The position numbers were made by a program, and so were the translations under genes. Below are positions 30,056 through 49,329 of a stretch of 64,000 nt of DNA, piece by piece. Location: NCBI RefSeq assembly GCF_013167455.1, contig NZ_CP038328.1. One strand, 5' to 3'. Below the pieces are notes generated by a model. The model made no database searches. It was not told where the DNA came from and saw only the letters and a program-made list of their open reading frames with translations. The first letter of the stretch is position 1. Each line of letters opens with the position of its first letter. This stretch comes from Escherichia coli O157:H7 (lineage in GTDB: Bacteria > Pseudomonadota > Gammaproteobacteria > Enterobacterales > Enterobacteriaceae).

Positions 30056-30152
30056 ACGCCCTCCAAATATTGCGCGTTATGCATGTTATTTCACGCAATT
30101 ATTTTGCGCAAGTTGATTTGCTTATCACGCAATAAAGAAATGTAATAAACGC
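30056..30152. promoter_or_regulatory. OR-like operator/promoter region (PR and leaderless PRM candidates)
   Basis: Three related 15-mers end in CGCAA or begin with TTGCG: 30070-30084, 30084-30098 and 30118-30132. TTGCTT, 17 nt, TGTAAT ends 6 nt before the cI ATG, which has no SD. Confidence 0.6.
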
Positions 30153-30845
30153 ATGAACATAGGAAACCGAGTCAGACAACTTCGCCAAGCGAAGAACATG
30201 AAAATCGCCGATCTCGCTGAAGCGATAGGAGTAGATGCGGCGAACATCTCGCGCTTAGAAACGGGTAAGCAAAAACAATTTACCGAACAAACACTGAGTA
30301 ATATTGCCAAGAGCTTAGGTGTTGATATTGCTGATCTCTTTACCTCTGCCCACAAAAGTAATACTGTATATAAAAACAGTAATAATGAGGATGTTGCGCA
30401 GGTGAAGGATGTGTTCCGTATTGAAATGCTGGATATCAGTGCCAGTGCGGGAAATGGCCTTATCCAGGGCGGTGATGTCATTGATGTGATTCATGCCATC
30501 GAATACAGAACTGATAATGCTGTATCAATGTTCGGCGGACGACCAGCCAATCACATCAAAGTTATCAACGTTCGTGGGGACAGTATGTGTCCAACCATTG
30601 AGCCAGGAGATCTCATCTTCGTTGATGTCAGCATCAATCAGTTTGATGGTGATGGTATATATGTCTTTGGTTTTGATGACAAAATATACGTTAAAAGACT
30701 TCAAATGATTCCTGACAAACTGCTGGTGATTTCTGATAACCAGATTTACCGTGAATGGGGAATTACTAGCGAAAACGAACACCGATTCATGGTCTTTGGA
30801 AAGGTCTTAATCAGTCAGTCGCAAACCCTTAAGAGACATAATTAA
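30153..30845 (+). CDS. cI: CI-type prophage repressor (XRE HTH + S24 LexA-like peptidase)
   Basis: 230 aa. HTH at the N-terminus; GDSM...KR catalytic Ser/Lys pattern. Confidence 0.9.
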   Translation: MNIGNRVRQLRQAKNMKIADLAEAIGVDAANISRLETGKQKQFTEQTLSNIAKSLGVDIADLFTSAHKSNTVYKNSNNEDVAQVKDVFRIEMLDISASAGNGLIQGGDVIDVIHAIEYRTDNAVSMFGGRPANHIKVINVRGDSMCPTIEPGDLIFVDVSINQFDGDGIYVFGFDDKIYVKRLQMIPDKLLVISDNQIYREWGITSENEHRFMVFGKVLISQSQTLKRHN

Positions 30846-30865
30846 CCTCAATATCCCATCCATCG

Positions 30866-30886
30866 GCCACCGAAAGGTGGCTTTTT
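30866..30886 (+). terminator. Intrinsic terminator after cI
   Basis: GCCACC-GAAA-GGTGGC followed by T5. Confidence 0.85.
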
Positions 30887-30898
30887 ATTACCTATAAA

Positions 30899-30936
30899 TT
30901 TGCATATCTCGCAAATACCACTTGCATATCTCGCAA
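30899..30936. promoter_or_regulatory. OL-like operators / candidate PL
   Basis: Two identical 15-mers TTGCATATCTCGCAA, 23 bp apart. They are 13/15 identical to the OR 15-mer at 30118-30132. The second TTGCAT plus 17 nt gives TATCTT. Confidence 0.6.
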
Positions 30937-31143
30937 TTTAATTTTATCTTTTATTCCAGACCAACTACAGGATTACAACAAAATCTGGTTGCAACACGGT
31001 GCATGTGTCGTAAGCAGTCAGTAAATGTCAAAAACGAACAGGCAGGACGCCCACGAAGTAGCCGCCTGGGGCATATGAAGTCCAGGATGATTCGTTGAGT
31101 CATGTTGTGCCACTAGGCACTCATGTTAAAGCAGGTGTATGAA

Positions 31144-31419
31144 ATGAAAGTCCAGATTTTAAACAATAACTGTGAAGTCGTTTGGTCATACGACATAGCC
31201 GCCCCTGTAGATCAGAGCGGCGATAGCTGGACCAATGGGAAACATCAGATTATGGCTGGAGTTGTGTTCTCTTTACGCCGTGCTTTAGAACAGGCTGAAG
31301 TCTTTCCATCAGACCCTGAATGGAAATGGCCTTTTTCTATTTGTCCAAATTCGGAGAGTACATTTCAGAAAATTGGTCAGAAAGTCGCACTCGAAGAGCA
31401 TCAGCCAACTGTTTCCTGA
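31144..31419 (+). CDS. Hypothetical protein (weak RBS; uncertain)
   Basis: ORF 31123-31419. Its 3' end overlaps the convergent 31337-31582 ORF by 83 nt. Confidence 0.35.
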   Translation: MKVQILNNNCEVVWSYDIAAPVDQSGDSWTNGKHQIMAGVVFSLRRALEQAEVFPSDPEWKWPFSICPNSESTFQKIGQKVALEEHQPTVS

Positions 31420-31582
31420 TTTTTTCAGGTAACTCGTCGGCATCGCAGAAACAACAACGCTCGATCATGTTGAAAGCCGATTCGTAGAACTGTTTTTGCT
31501 GAGTGTCGCTGAGACAGGAAAAGAGCGACGTTACGATGATTTTATTAATTGCATTATCAAGTTCTTTTTCATCAAAAGTCAT
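31337..31582 (-). CDS. Hypothetical 81-aa protein on the strand opposite to the early-left operon
   Basis: AAGGA lies 8 nt upstream of the ATG. AT-rich. No family recognised. Confidence 0.45.
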   Translation of the reverse strand: MTFDEKELDNAINKIIVTSLFSCLSDTQQKQFYESAFNMIERCCFCDADELPEKIRKQLADALRVRLSDQFSEMYSPNLDK

Positions 31583-31603
31583 TTGATTTTCCTTTTATGT
31601 ATA

Positions 31604-32058
31604 CGGGCTTAAAAGGATACCACCGAGCCTGAAGTGGTGAAAAGACAGGCACATAACAGCTAAGTATTTTCAACCAGAGAGAATCCTTAGCGTTGTGGTG
31701 AATGCGGCTCAGCGCACGCGGGTTAAGGTTGAGGCTGACAGTCGACCTTCTGTGGATACCCACCCGCCTGGTGTGCAACCTTCGCCAGGCACCGGGAGGC
31801 ACCCGGCACCACAACTTTATGCTGTGTGTAGTCTTAGCGGTACCAGCTTGTACCCTTGCTTCCGGCTGGTACCGTCCTTTTTACAAAACAGAGAAGAGCA
31901 TCACCGGACGACGGGCTCATAACCCAATCCATCCGGGCGGCTGCCACCGCAGGTGTTCTTCTCTGTTTTGTGGAGAAACTAACCGCCCCTACGGGGGCAT
32001 TTATGGAAATGTAATTGACTCAATAATCGCCGGACGGTGAGGGCTTCCTTTTACCCGA
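31604..32058 (+). ncRNA. Candidate large structured RNA (family unknown)
   Basis: No credible ORF. Nested helices: 31692-31700/31807-31815 (9 bp), 31838-31847/31865-31874 (10 bp, then TCCTTTTT), 31883-31900/31954-31971 (18 bp with one G-U), and a C(UACG)G hairpin at 31985-31998. A closing pairing joins 31604-31617 to 32047-32058. Confidence 0.45.
31838..31882 (+). terminator. Terminator-like hairpin inside the structured region
   Basis: CGGTACCAGC, 17 nt, GCTGGTACCG followed by TCCTTTTT. Confidence 0.5.
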
Positions 32059-32095
32059 ATTCAGCGCGGTGCAGCGCATATACGTGGAGAACAAA

Positions 32096-32632
32096 ATGTC
32101 ATTTATTAAAACTTTTTCCGGGAAGCATTTTTATTATGACAGGATAAATAAAGACGACATCGTTATTTACGATATCGCGGTTTCCCTTTCAAATATCTGT
32201 CGCTTTGCAGGACATCTTTCACACTTCTACAGTGTCGCCCAACATGCGGTGCTTTGCAGCCAGCTGGTGCCACAGGAATTTGCTTTTGAAGCTTTAATGC
32301 ATGATGCAACAGAAGCATATTGCCAGGACATCCCCGCACCACTGAAACGACTTCTTCCTGACTATAAACGGATGGAAGAAAAAATAGACGCCGTAATACG
32401 TGAGAAATACGGGTTACCTCCTGTTATGAGCACGCCAGTGAAATATGCCGATCTCATTATGCTGGCAACCGAACGCCGCGATCTCGGGCTTGATGATGGC
32501 TCTTTCTGGCCTGTACTGGAAGGTATCCCGGCAACAGAGATGTTCAAAGTGATTCCACAGGCACCGGGCCATGCCTACGGGATGTTTATGGAACGTTTTA
32601 ACGAGTTATCGGAGTTACGCAAATGCGCATGA
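32096..32632 (+). CDS. HD-domain phosphohydrolase (YfbR-like)
   Basis: Start at MSFIKTF (GGAG 7 nt upstream). H...HD metal motif (SVAQHAV ... LMHDATEAY). Confidence 0.75.
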   Translation: MSFIKTFSGKHFYYDRINKDDIVIYDIAVSLSNICRFAGHLSHFYSVAQHAVLCSQLVPQEFAFEALMHDATEAYCQDIPAPLKRLLPDYKRMEEKIDAVIREKYGLPPVMSTPVKYADLIMLATERRDLGLDDGSFWPVLEGIPATEMFKVIPQAPGHAYGMFMERFNELSELRKCA

Positions 32633-34694: not shown

Positions 34695-34770
34695 TGGTGC
34701 CGATAATAGGAGTCGAACCTACGACCTTCGCATTACGAATGCGCTGCTCTACCAACTGAGCTATATCGGC
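34695..34770 (-). tRNA. thrW: tRNA-Thr (anticodon CGU)
   Basis: Reverse complement: GCCGATATAGCTCAGTTGGTAGAGCAGCGCATTCGTAATGCGAAGGTCGTAGGTTCGACTCCTATTATCGGCACCA. Cloverleaf with CGT anticodon and encoded CCA. Confidence 0.95.
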
Positions 34771-49244: not shown

Positions 49245-49329
49245 TGTAGGCATGATAAGACGCGTCAGCGTCGTATCAGGCATCTGCGCACAACTGCCGG
49301 ATGCGGCGTGAATGCCTTATCCGTCCTAC
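49245..49329. repeat. REP/BIME cluster
   Basis: Same two REP types as at 48522-48640, in the opposite order, so rayT is bracketed. Confidence 0.85.

What the first reader, a model, noticed from the sequence alone, without database searches (positions are those of the whole stretch)
31583..32095. Half-kilobase GC-rich, hairpin-dense, ORF-poor island upstream of an HD phosphohydrolase: candidate large structured RNA of unknown family
**Setting.** The 513-bp gap between the 81-aa minus-strand ORF and the HD gene is far longer than any other intergenic gap in this tightly packed prophage. It is visibly more GC-rich than its AT-rich flanks. The only ORFs in it (31702-32040, 31695-31922, 31572-31814) have Arg/Cys/Pro-rich, non-protein-like composition.

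**Stacked helices read directly from the sequence**
- GTTGTGGTG (31692-31700) pairs with CACCACAAC (31807-31815). This helix encloses three smaller hairpins: GCGGGT/ACCCGC, GCCTGG/CCAGGC and CCGGG/CCCGG.
- CGGTACCAGC pairs with GCTGGTACCG (31838-31874) and is followed by TCCTTTTT.
- An 18-bp stem joins 31883-31900 to 31954-31971. Its single non-Watson-Crick position is G-U on the plus strand and would be an A-C mismatch on the minus strand.
- A 5-bp hairpin at 31985-31998 is closed as C(UACG)G, a UNCG-type tetraloop only on the plus strand.
- A long-range pairing CGGG-ct-TAAAAGGA (31604-31617) with TCCTTTTACCCG (32047-32058) brackets the whole region.

**Interpretation.** The strand-specific features (G-U pair, UNCG loop, T-run) argue for an RNA on the plus strand, the same direction as the early-left operon. 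The long stem-loop with flanking complementarity is superficially retron-msd-like, and a TTAGCG motif sits at 31687. However, no reverse transcriptase is encoded in the window, so it may work with the adjacent HD protein, act as an antitermination or processing element, or be something else.
Basis: partly seen in the sequence, partly recalled or inferred. Interest (0 to 1): 0.75.

Follow-up and report, generated by a model that had tools for sequence, protein, structure and literature searches.

The report
Tandem prophage small RNAs, one tRNA-like
The "island" is not one big RNA but two small structured RNA modules in the early-operon leader of an E. coli O157:H7 prophage: a divergent copy of a known prophage small RNA (STnc100/PasD type), and an apparently undescribed RNA, present in about half of complete E. 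coli genomes, that carries an exact copy of the initiator-tRNA anticodon hairpin.

Summary
Window 31583-32095 is GC-rich, has no credible ORF and folds far better than shuffled sequence (z = -6.8 on the plus strand, -4.5 on the minus strand).

The region is a tandem of separately mobile modules, not one large RNA.

- **Module A (31662-31884, plus strand).** A full-length but sub-threshold match to Rfam STnc100 (43 bits against a cutoff of 47; E = 1e-7). This family of prophage small RNAs is expressed in EHEC, and its relative PasD is Hfq-stabilised in EPEC. A ends in a terminator hairpin of weak DicF resemblance plus a U-run. E. coli K-12 has the same kind of core directly after dicF.
- **Module B (31883-31979, plus strand).** A 97-nt three-way junction with strong covariation and no Rfam hit. 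One arm is capped by CGGGCUCAUAACCC, identical to the E. coli initiator-tRNA anticodon stem-loop. B occurs in 2807 of 5426 complete E. coli genomes, in at least 15 other genera of Enterobacterales and in phage P1. It usually follows a small-RNA terminator and precedes varied early genes.
- **31980-32095.** The 5' UTR of the yfdR-like HD gene.

The retron, decayed-gene and single-giant-RNA readings are rejected. The function of B is unknown; mimicry of the initiator-tRNA anticodon arm is the leading hypothesis.

The parts
30900..30951 (+). Context: candidate repressor-controlled early-left promoter (PL). Two identical operator-like repeats TTGCATATCTCGCAA lie at 30900-30914 and 30922-30936. A -35 TTGCAT, 17-nt spacer and -10 TATCTT overlap the second repeat.
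   Evidence: Repeat family D1 also includes TTGCTTATCACGCAA at 30118-30132, between cro and cI. Sequence read. The promoter assignment is my inference; the consensus scan did not list it.
31028..31096 (+). Context: conserved two-hairpin leader element about 70 nt downstream of the candidate PL. It is a possible put-like (processive antitermination) RNA.
   Evidence: The core matches at about 84-100% identity in phages of Escherichia, Salmonella, Yersinia, Klebsiella, Pantoea, Pectobacterium and Citrobacter. There are 59 distinct variants among held loci, with compensatory changes in stem II and in the outer CGAA/UUCG helix. No Rfam hit. Homology to HK022 putL is not shown.
31619..31638 (.). 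Hairpin ACCACCGAGCCTGAAGTGGT upstream of module A. Its role is unknown. On the minus strand it reads as a terminator-like hairpin followed by a T-run.
   Evidence: Terminator scan, minus strand. The hairpin and the following AAAAG.CAGGCACA.AACA are also present upstream of the A-type element of Cronobacter phage phiES15.
31662..31884 (+). Module A: STnc100/PasD-type prophage small RNA of a divergent subfamily.
   Evidence: Rfam RF02076 STnc100, model positions 1-206 of 206, 43.0 bits (gathering 47), E = 9.7e-8 over 1.1 kb. Homologues score 39.5 bits in SfV, 35.1 in ST64B and 33.4 in P1, and 34.4 in K-12 Qin.
31692..31815 (+). Core of A: a closing helix (GUUGUGGUG/CACCACAAC) enclosing four hairpins. 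The junction GGUGAAU and the 3' element CACCGGGAGGCACCCGGCACC are near-invariant across the family.
   Evidence: 37 representative cores. Compensatory changes occur in the closing helix (U-A to C-G in P1/SJ46) and in hairpins 2 and 3. K-12 has CCUGG/CCAGG in place of CCGGG/CCCGG.
31816..31837 (+). Linker UUUAUGCUGUGUGUAGUCUUAG that the minimum-free-energy fold pairs with upstream sequence at about 31649-31655 and 31657-31658. If it is free in the processed RNA, it is a candidate seed of small RNA A.
   Evidence: UGCUGUGUGUAGUCUU is kept in phiES15 and phiNP. ST64B has a near-identical copy, UGCUGUGUGAAGUCUU. The pairing is from the fold. No convincing target in the window. The seed role is inference.
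31838..31882 (+). Intrinsic-terminator-type hairpin (10-bp stem CGGUACCAGC/GCUGGUACCG, 17-nt loop) followed by UCCUUUUU. It is the 3' end of A and weakly resembles the DicF 3' hairpin.
   Evidence: Sequence. Included in the STnc100 alignment as the terminal hairpin. Weak DicF hit at 31823-31877, 13.5 bits, E = 8, which is not significant. The same hairpin follows DicF-like sequence in Stx2c phages.
31883..31979 (+). Module B: a three-way-junction RNA. It has a long outer stem containing the conserved GAGCAUCACC segment, arm 1 with the initiator-tRNA-like cap, a variable arm 2 (GCGG CUGCCA CCGC) and the conserved tail GUGGAGAAAC.
   Evidence: Model R1: 107.1 bits on the plus strand, 35.1 on the minus strand. 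Covariation: 95% of cells paired, 11 pairs changed on both sides, 0 of 500 shuffles as good, slid controls 40-51%. In a model-fitted alignment of the 25 best plus-strand matches from one-genome-per-species records (23 distinct sequences), 98% of cells are paired and 19 of 32 pairs are changed on both sides. No Rfam match at E <= 10 other than noise.
31912..31925 (+). CGGGCTCATAACCC: three G-C pairs closing the loop CUCAUAA, identical to positions 28-41 of E. coli initiator tRNA.
   Evidence: Single exact match in the window. The metZ sequence reads ...GTCGGGCTCATAACCCGAAG.... The loop is CUCAUAA in more than 100 of about 115 B elements that were selected by the outer stem rather than the loop.
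31980..32095 (+). Locus-specific 5' UTR of the yfdR-like HD gene, with the c(UACG)g hairpin at 31985-31998.
   Evidence: Shared only with SfII, SKA5 and similar loci. SfV-type phages diverge after 31996. One variant has a UGCG loop. The HD gene is annotated as the 5'-deoxynucleotidase yfdR.

Best explanation
**What it is.** The island is the untranslated leader of the prophage's repressor-controlled early-left operon. This operon has the same layout as the dicB operon of Qin and the ban operon leader of P1. The leader consists of separately mobile RNA modules laid end to end.

**Module A (31662-31884)** is a divergent STnc100/PasD-class small RNA. It has a multi-hairpin core, a linker conserved in sequence (a possible seed) and its own hairpin-plus-U-run 3' end.

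**Module B (31883-31979)** is a distinct, apparently unclassified tRNA-like RNA. It is a long helix carrying a three-way junction, and one arm of the junction reproduces the initiator-tRNA anticodon stem-loop.

**The last 115 nt** are the gene-specific 5' UTR of the yfdR-like HD gene.

**Proposed working (inferred)**
1. When the cI-like repressor is inactivated, the promoter at about 30922-30951 fires rightward.
2. Transcripts that stop at 31882 give small RNA A. Family precedent (PasD) suggests A acts as an Hfq-dependent base-pairing regulator.
3. Transcripts that read through carry B and the early genes. Read-through may be helped by the conserved leader element at 31028-31096.
4. B is then either excised as a stable RNA or stays in the mRNA leader. 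Its invariant cap engages a factor that normally recognises the initiator-tRNA anticodon arm: the 30S P site with IF3, MetRS, or an initiator-specific anticodon nuclease such as VapC. B would then act as a mimic or decoy.

**Shown:** the structures, homology, modularity, strand and distribution.
**Inferred:** the promoter, processing, Hfq dependence of this copy, and any function of B.
For: **Structure**
- Fold z = -6.8 on the plus strand.

**Module A**
- Full-length STnc100 alignment with E = 1e-7.
- The family occurs in tandem arrays next to tRNA genes and isrI in other phages.
- EDL933 carries 11 annotated STnc100 copies, all with transcriptome reads, one confirmed by Northern blot (PMC5331693).
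- The PasD relatives depend on Hfq for stability and have RIL-seq partners (PMC8550237). The PasD-STnc100 relationship is proposed in bioRxiv 10.64898/2026.05.13.724894.
- The core helices are kept through compensatory changes in P1, SJ46, ST64B, phiES15 and K-12.

**Module B**
- Covariation and strand asymmetry.
- The 14-nt identity with metZ.
- The loop is kept in elements chosen by their stem.
- Present in 2807 of 5426 complete E. coli genomes and in at least 15 other genera of Enterobacterales.

**Modularity**
- Stx2c, mEp460 and cdtI phages have B but not the A core.
- Canonical STnc100 loci lack B.
- P1 has B-like followed by A-like units, repeated after tRNA-Asn and tRNA-Thr.
- In Klebsiella phages a short B abuts tRNA genes and ends in GGCC-ACCA.
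- K-12 has dicF followed by an A-type core and then dicB.

**Context of B**
- 124 of 150 distinct contexts have a T-run just upstream of B.
- Downstream genes vary: YfdP-like, sb37-like, yfdR, RdgC-like and TerB.

**Promoter**
- Operator repeats lie downstream of cI.
Against: - A scores below Rfam's gathering threshold, and its first hairpin differs from the family consensus.
- No sigma-70 consensus promoter was found on the plus strand between 30700 and 32300. Whether A has its own promoter is therefore open.
- There are no expression data for this particular locus.
- B has no D or T arm, and ARAGORN and the Rfam tRNA model do not call it. 'tRNA-like' therefore rests on one arm plus its association with tRNA genes.
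- Most B sequences were collected with a pattern that includes the anticodon-like loop, so conservation of the loop is partly built in. The stem-selected sample consists of close relatives.
- The long, nearly perfect outer helix could simply be an RNase III site.
- The varied downstream genes fit a generic cis-acting leader as well as they fit a trans-acting decoy.
Confidence: 0.65

Rival explanations
1. B, and possibly the A core, is purely a cis-acting leader element. It would be a processing or stability signal that separates the upstream small RNA from the downstream mRNA and sets the mRNA's 5' end or translation. Candidate enzymes are RNase III acting on the roughly 20-bp helix, or RNase P/E as for tRNA-like structures. 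On this view B has no function as a free RNA or mimic.
For: - B sits directly after a hairpin plus U-run and directly before the first protein gene in most contexts, whatever that gene is.
- In K-12 an A-type core forms the dicB 5' UTR without its own terminator.
- The outer helix is long, nearly perfect and covaries.
- From my own knowledge, DicF in the homologous operon is made by RNase III/RNase E processing and termination (Faubladier et al. 1990).
Against: - A simple RNase III site would not need the invariant GACGGG-CUCAUAA-CCCAAUC arm, the conserved GAGCAUCACC segment or a three-way junction.
- Short B variants in Klebsiella phages lie inside tRNA clusters and end in ACCA, like a released tRNA-type product.
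Confidence: 0.3
2. One reading: the whole 513 bp is one large structured RNA of an unknown family. It would be bracketed by the 31604-31617 / 32047-32058 pairing and possibly work with the HD protein.
For: - The MFE fold of the whole region closes its ends and has a strong z-score.
- A and B are adjacent in this prophage, in SfV, SfII and ST64B, and in the other order in P1.
Against: - The two halves occur independently.
- A hairpin plus U-run sits between them.
- The bracketing helix is missing in SfV (no right arm) and in SfII (no left arm).
- The 5' half belongs to a known family of about 200-nt small RNAs.
- The HD gene is the gene downstream of B in only 9 of 150 contexts.
Confidence: 0.05
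3. A decayed or unrecognised protein-coding gene lies in the island. RefSeq annotates a 'frameshifted hypothetical protein' at 31695-32014, and phage records carry 'hypothetical protein' calls there.
For: - The PGAP pseudogene call.
- 'Hypothetical protein' features lie under many phage matches.
- ORFs of 75-112 codons exist.
Against: - No Pfam family; the only PHROG hit is one 23-residue stretch.
- 44 variable sites among 30 distinct homologues fall 10/14/20 over the three codon positions. My chi-square estimate is about 3.4 on 2 degrees of freedom, which is not significant.
- Close homologues differ by indels of 1, 5 and 7 nt.
- Substitutions preserve base pairing instead.
Confidence: 0.03
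4. A retron msr-msd, or a DNA-level element such as an operator, att site or origin, built from the inverted repeats.
For: An 18-bp inverted repeat could bind a protein as DNA.
Against: - The adjacent genes are an HD 5'-deoxynucleotidase and DUF551/YfdT-like proteins, not a reverse transcriptase.
- No Rfam family other than tRNA and naRNA4 reaches its gathering score in the window.
- The G-U wobbles would be A-C mismatches on the other strand, and plus-strand scores are three times the minus-strand scores. Selection is therefore on one RNA strand, not on duplex DNA.
Confidence: 0.02

Closest known systems
STnc100 (Rfam RF02076) and its proposed relative PasD, prophage-encoded small RNAs
   Same: Module A aligns to the whole model. 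It shares the closing helix, the GGUGAAU junction, the invariant CACCGGGAGGCACCCGGCACC hairpin, a terminal hairpin with U-run, and prophage location. Family members are expressed in EHEC, and PasD is Hfq-stabilised in EPEC.
   Different: It scores 43 bits, below the 47-bit gathering score. Hairpin 1 is GCGGCUCAGCGCACGC rather than CCCCC...GGGGG. It lies in the early-left leader next to the immunity region, not in the late region near stx, the lysis genes or nanS-p. This subfamily is shared with P1, ST64B, phiES15 and the K-12 dicF-dicB spacer.
The dicF region of the dicB operon (Qin prophage, E. coli K-12) and the P1 ban-operon leader
   Same: The position is the same: downstream of a cI/DicA-type repressor and upstream of early 'host-takeover' genes. 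Small-RNA modules are embedded in an operon transcript. K-12 has dicF immediately followed by an A-type core. P1 has a dicF-like region, tRNAs, and then B-like and A-like units.
   Different: The window has no DicF by Rfam criteria (13.5 bits against 48). The module order and content differ. Module B is absent from Qin and from K-12 CPS-53.
Initiator tRNA (metZ/W/V, metY) anticodon stem-loop
   Same: 14 of 14 nt are identical, including the three consecutive G-C pairs and the CUCAUAA loop.
   Different: There is no acceptor, D or T arm of tRNA type. The stem below the three G-C pairs opens into a conserved internal loop (C on one side, AA on the other) and continues as a covarying helix. Neither ARAGORN nor the Rfam tRNA model calls it.
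Bacterial Y RNAs (YrlA), which are tRNA mimics on a long stem
   Same: The design is similar: the 5' and 3' ends form a long helix, and a tRNA-like module sits on top (PMC4201824).
   Different: No Rfam match at all. The Rsr-binding motif GNCGAAN0-1G is absent from the 5' strand of B. No rsr gene is nearby. The mimicked part is the anticodon arm, not the T and D arms.
Phage-encoded tRNAs proposed to counter tRNA-targeting defences, and the stable RNAs of unknown function in phage tRNA clusters (T4 species 1 and 2; own knowledge)
   Same: B-type elements sit beside real tRNA genes in P1 and in Klebsiella phages. The idea that phage tRNA-like molecules evade or absorb anticodon nucleases has precedent (PMC10264068, listed).
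   Different: B cannot be a functional tRNA, and no nuclease or binding partner has been linked to it.

Membership tests
STnc100 (Rfam RF02076) | Covariance-model score at or above the curated gathering score (47 bits) | tested here: not met
   43.0 bits, E = 9.7e-8 in a 1.1-kb search, model positions 1-206 of 206. Not listed in the gathering-threshold scan of the window.
STnc100 (Rfam RF02076) | Closing helix with the GGUGAAU junction and the 3' CACCGGGAGGCACCCGGCACC hairpin enclosing internal hairpins | tested here: met
   Present at 31692-31815. The same elements are near-invariant in 37 representative cores.
STnc100 (Rfam RF02076) | First hairpin CCCCCuGuGCGGaGGGG | tested here: not met
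   Replaced by GCGGCUCAGCGCACGC, which still forms a hairpin. cmscan marks non-standard pairs there. The variant is shared with P1, phiES15, ST64B and K-12.
STnc100 (Rfam RF02076) | Terminal hairpin followed by a U-run | tested here: met
   31838-31874 followed by UCCUUUUU, aligned to the model's 3' hairpin.
STnc100 / PasD | Expressed as a discrete small RNA; Hfq-dependent in the case of PasD | not testable with these tools
   Shown for other copies only.
DicF (Rfam RF00039) | Score at or above 48 bits; the 53-nt DicF sequence | tested here: not met
   13.5 bits, E = 8 at 31823-31877. The K-12 control scores 76.7 bits.
tRNA | Cloverleaf with acceptor, D, anticodon and T arms | tested here: not met
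   ARAGORN and the Rfam tRNA model find only tRNA-Thr at 34695-34770. B has only an anticodon-arm look-alike.
Initiator-tRNA anticodon-arm mimic (a descriptive class, not a curated family) | Three consecutive G-C pairs closing a CUCAUAA loop | tested here: met
   Identical 14-mer in metZ and at 31912-31925. Conserved in the family.
Initiator-tRNA anticodon-arm mimic (a descriptive class, not a curated family) | Binding to, or cleavage by, a factor that recognises the initiator anticodon arm | not testable with these tools
Retron msr-msd | An adjacent reverse transcriptase gene | tested here: not met
   The neighbours are yfdR (HD), DUF551/YfdS-like, YfdT-like, xis and int. The rest of the window was not scanned protein by protein.
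Retron msr-msd | Conserved a1/a2 flanking inverted repeats | tested here: not met
   The proposed bracket is absent in SfV and SfII.
Bacterial Y RNA (YrlA) | Rsr-binding motif GNCGAAN0-1G near the 5' end, T- and D-arm-like hairpins, and an rsr gene nearby | tested here: not met
   The motif is absent from ACAAAACAGAGAAGAGCAUCACC. No Rfam hit. The definition is from PMC4201824.

The most novel reading that the evidence does not exclude
Module B would be a widespread, previously unrecognised phage RNA that mimics the anticodon arm of initiator tRNA. It would be made early after induction or infection and titrate an initiator-specific factor. One candidate is a VapC-type nuclease that cleaves tRNA-fMet, which would make B an RNA decoy against toxin-mediated abortive infection. 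Another is the 30S P site with IF3, or MetRS, which would make B a host-translation takeover device. More broadly, phage early-operon leaders would contain arrays of tRNA-derived 'cargo on a long stem' modules. P1 and phiNP carry T-arm versions, which would make this a new class of phage tRNA mimics.
Probability: 0.2. Interest if true: 0.85.

Novelty: new variant of a known kind. Interest (0 to 1): 0.6.

Why it matters
- Module A extends the STnc100/PasD family to a divergent subfamily that Rfam's threshold misses. That subfamily includes the spacer between dicF and dicB in E. coli K-12 and part of the ban operon leader of P1, so current annotation under-counts the family.
- Module B is present in about half of complete E. 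coli genomes and across Enterobacterales prophages. In the records seen here the feature under it is 'hypothetical protein', a pseudogene, or nothing.
- B has clear covariation and an exact copy of the most distinctive part of initiator tRNA. If that cap is functional, it would be a new way for phages to touch translation initiation or to absorb anticodon nucleases. It is directly testable with loop and stem mutants in SfII, SfV or O157 lysogens.
- The analysis also shows that the leaders of dicB-type early operons are built from exchangeable RNA cassettes.

Tried and rejected
- **Retron.** No adjacent reverse transcriptase, and the bracket is not conserved.
- **Protein-coding remnant.** No Pfam family, only one 23-residue PHROG stretch, no codon-position bias, and indels of 1, 5 and 7 nt.
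- **Cluster of independent terminators.** Only one hairpin in the island (31838-31874) is followed by a U-run on the plus strand.
- **B as PasA/PasC.** The PasA and PasD1 sequence fragments in the supplement of PMC8550237 do not resemble B.
- **B as a Y RNA.** The Rsr motif is absent and there is no Rfam hit.
- **Literature search by sequence strings of A and B.** No paper found. A search for an initiator-tRNA mimic in prophages found only toxin-antitoxin reviews.
- **Leader element 31028-31096 as HK022 putL.** BLAST against the HK022 immunity region gave only chance-level matches. The shared ACGAAC and CAGGAUGA strings were seen by eye only.
- **Target of the A linker within the window.** None above chance.
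- **B in K-12.** Not found upstream of yfdP in CPS-53 or in the dicB region.
- **B motif outside Enterobacterales.** A few convincing extended hairpins occur in Acidobacteriaceae, Saccharibacteria and Bdellovibrionota MAGs. I estimate about 17 chance matches in 596 Gb, the neighbouring genes are unrelated, and I did not pursue it.
- **MAFFT alignment of A cores.** It failed to align the variable inner hairpins, so I compared single-sequence folds instead.
Full report
**Setting.** The window is identical over the query to E. coli O157:H7 chromosomes such as FRIK944. The finding lies in an SfV/SfII-like prophage integrated at tRNA-Thr(CGU) (34695-34770). Reading rightward, the local order is:
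- cro-like (minus strand) and cI-like repressor (30153-30845);
- a terminator (30865-30882);
- a small ORF;
- the island;
- a yfdR-type HD 5'-deoxynucleotidase (32096-32632);
- DUF551/YfdS-like and YfdT-like genes, then xis and int.

**Candidate promoter.** Two identical operator-like repeats (TTGCATATCTCGCAA at 30900 and 30922) resemble a repeat in the cro-cI spacer. They overlap a plausible -35/-10 pair. I read this as the repressor-controlled early-left promoter, which makes the island part of its leader. This is inference, because the consensus promoter scan did not list it.

**Checking the observation.**
- GC rises to 0.54-0.575 between AT-rich flanks.
- The plus strand folds at -210.7 kcal/mol against -164 for shuffles (z = -6.8). 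The minus strand gives z = -4.5.
- The exception in significance is the long-range 'bracket' 31604-31617 / 32047-32058. SfV has the left arm but diverges after 31996. SfII has the right arm but its similarity starts at 31616. The bracket is therefore not conserved.
- ORFs in the island have no Pfam family, and the only PHROG hit is one 23-residue stretch.
- RefSeq nevertheless annotates a 'frameshifted hypothetical protein' there.
- Among 30 distinct close homologues, 44 variable sites fall 10/14/20 on the three codon positions, which is not significant. Indels of 1, 5 and 7 nt occur. Coding is therefore rejected.

**Module A.**
- A permissive Rfam scan gives a full-length match of 31662-31884 (plus strand) to STnc100 (RF02076). 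The score is 43 bits against a 47-bit gathering score, with E = 1e-7, which explains why the default scan missed it.
- The match comprises a closing helix (31692-31700 / 31807-31815), four internal hairpins, the family's near-invariant GGUGAAU and CACCGGGAGGCACCCGGCACC elements, a linker conserved in sequence (UGCUGUGUGUAGUCUU) and a terminal hairpin with U-run.
- The first hairpin differs from the consensus. The window shares that variant with P1, SJ46, ST64B, phiES15 and the spacer between dicF and dicB in E. coli K-12, where the core scores 34.4 bits and runs into dicB.
- Compensatory changes keep the closing helix (U-A to C-G), hairpins 2 and 3, and in K-12 the last hairpin (CCGGG/CCCGG to CCUGG/CCAGG).
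- Canonical STnc100 copies occur in tandem arrays next to tRNA genes and isrI in other phages.
- Eleven copies are transcribed in EDL933, one confirmed by Northern blot (PMC5331693).
- The related PasD RNAs are Hfq-stabilised with many RIL-seq partners (PMC8550237; the relationship is proposed in bioRxiv 10.64898/2026.05.13.724894).
- A is therefore a divergent member of a known class.

**Module B: structure.**
- Alignment of 22 diverse copies gives a consensus of outer stem, arm 1 and arm 2. It has 95% of cells paired and 11 pairs changed on both sides. None of 500 shuffles reached the observed percentage paired, number of doubly changed pairs or covariation score, and slid controls pair at 40-51%.
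- The best 25 plus-strand matches from the one-genome-per-species collection contain 23 distinct sequences. In an alignment fitted to the model, they give 98% pairing and 19 of 32 pairs with double changes.
- The model scores the plus strand at 107 bits and the minus strand at 35. G-U pairs are common.
- Rfam has nothing for it.

**Module B: the cap and the distribution.**
- Arm 1 is capped by CGGGCUCAUAACCC. This is identical to positions 28-41 of E. coli initiator tRNA, including its hallmark three G-C pairs.
- In about 115 copies chosen by their outer stem rather than the loop, more than 100 keep CUCAUAA. The rest differ by one or two bases.
- Copies found by BLAST alone keep UCAU: Klebsiella phages, ST64B and P1.
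- B is in 2807 of 5426 complete E. coli genomes, with up to five copies per genome.

**Modularity and context.**
- Stx2c, mEp460 and cdtI phages have B preceded by a DicF-like sequence instead of the A core.
- Canonical STnc100 loci lack B.
- Of 150 distinct contexts, 124 have a T-run just upstream of B. The upstream module is A-type in 35 and DicF-like in 24.
- The downstream gene varies: YfdP-like, sb37-like, yfdR, RdgC-like or TerB.
- In P1 the C1-controlled ban operon reads: dicF-like region, tRNA-Asn, tRNA-Thr, then three units of a B-like long stem followed by an A-like start, then tciABC, tRNA-Ile and ban. The first B-like unit carries a true T-arm sequence. The units overlap the annotated minus-strand plp and upl ORFs.
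- In Klebsiella phages a short B abuts tRNA genes downstream of Q and ends in GGCC-ACCA.
- Citrobacter phage phiNP has about 1 kb of such modules between its repressor and its first early gene.
- The island is thus one instance of a cassette-built leader.

**How it probably works.**
- *Shown:* two conserved plus-strand RNA structures, their homologies and their arrangement.
- *Inferred for A:* on derepression the early-left promoter transcribes the leader, and stops at 31882 yield small RNA A, an Hfq-type regulator by family precedent.
- *Inferred for read-through:* read-through yields B and the early genes. A conserved 68-nt two-hairpin element at 31028-31096 sits where HK022 has putL and may make RNA polymerase terminator-resistant. 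It has 59 variants with covarying stems and occurs from Yersinia to Pectobacterium phages. Homology to put is not demonstrated.
- *Preferred reading for B:* the stems covary while the anticodon-like arm stays invariant. This argues that the cap is read by something that recognises the initiator anticodon arm.
- *Candidate readers of the cap (own knowledge):* the 30S P site with IF3; MetRS; and VapC toxins of Shigella and Salmonella, which cleave tRNA-fMet in this loop. The decoy concept for phage tRNAs has precedent (PMC10264068).
- *Main rival for B:* it is only a cis-acting processing or stability element, such as an RNase III or RNase P site.

**Verdict.**
- A is a new, sub-threshold member of a known family.
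- B appears to be an undescribed, very common tRNA-like RNA of unknown function.
- The single-giant-RNA, retron and decayed-gene readings are rejected.

Noticed in passing
window 31028-31096 (+): A 68-nt element just downstream of the candidate early-left promoter: ACGAACAGGCAGGACGCCCACGAAGUAGCCGCC-stem II-GGAUGAUUCG. It is conserved in temperate phages of Escherichia, Salmonella, Yersinia, Klebsiella, Pantoea, Pectobacterium and Citrobacter. Stem II and an outer helix show compensatory changes. There is no Rfam hit. Its position and size recall HK022 putL, but homology was not shown.
   Followed up: partly
window 30900-30936 and 30118-30132: Operator-like repeats: TTGCATATCTCGCAA twice downstream of cI, and TTGCTTATCACGCAA between cro and cI. 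They suggest OL/PL and OR sites for the cI-like repressor.
   Followed up: partly
L004 (phage P1, AF234172) 1926-2630: The stretch annotated as the minus-strand genes plp and upl is covered on the plus strand by three units of a B-like long stem followed by an A-like 'GUGGUGAAUGC' start. The first unit contains a canonical T-arm, GGGTTCGAATCCC. The ORF calls may be spurious, or they may overlap RNA genes.
   Followed up: partly
L275 (E. coli K-12 Qin) 2433-2642: The spacer between dicF and dicB is an STnc100-like core (34.4 bits, E = 2e-5) of the same subfamily as the window's module A. It has a compensated CCUGG/CCAGG last hairpin, and it forms the dicB 5' UTR.
   Followed up: yes
window 31695-32014; L274 2713-3032: RefSeq/PGAP annotates a 'frameshifted hypothetical protein' pseudogene across both RNA modules. 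Many phage records have 'hypothetical protein' calls there. These are probably annotation artefacts spread by homology.
   Followed up: yes
window 31123-31419 (+) and 31337-31582 (-): Two overlapping ORFs on opposite strands each match a PHROG family of unknown function over its full length. RefSeq keeps only the plus-strand one. Which of the two is real affects the left boundary of the non-coding region.
   Followed up: no
L236 (Citrobacter phage phiNP) 1740-2725: About 1 kb of non-coding sequence lies between the repressor gene and the first early gene. It contains the conserved leader element, a long-stem module carrying two T-arm-like hairpins (GGTTCGATTCC, GTTCAATTC), a DicF-type hairpin and a B element.
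   Followed up: partly
L016, L026, L035, L073, L091 and others: Canonical STnc100 elements occur as tandem arrays of two to five copies, spaced about 250-500 nt apart, adjacent to tRNA genes and isrI.
   Followed up: partly
L295, L296, L289 (Acidobacteriaceae, Saccharibacteria and Deltaproteobacteria MAGs): The 19-nt motif ACGGGCUCAUA(A/U)CCCAAUC also caps 9-10-bp helices in a few distant phyla, next to unrelated genes. I estimate about 17 chance matches in the 596-Gb collection, so the significance is unclear.
   Followed up: partly
B arm 2 and the hairpin downstream of B in many loci: Hairpin loops of the form UUGCAG, GUGCAG or UGGCAG recur in arm 2 of B and in the hairpin just before the downstream start codon, in several lineages. 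The window's own copy has CUGCCA and UACG instead.
   Followed up: no
L001, L002, L003 (SfV, ST64B, Stx2c phage), about 2.5 kb upstream of the island's homologue: These relatives carry C4 antisense RNA and isrK (P1/P7-type immunity) beyond cro. The window's prophage has neither at Rfam gathering score.
   Followed up: no
window 49249-49326 (-): A match to naRNA4 (RF02564, 64.8 bits), a REP-derived nucleoid-associated RNA. It lies outside the prophage region under study.
   Followed up: no
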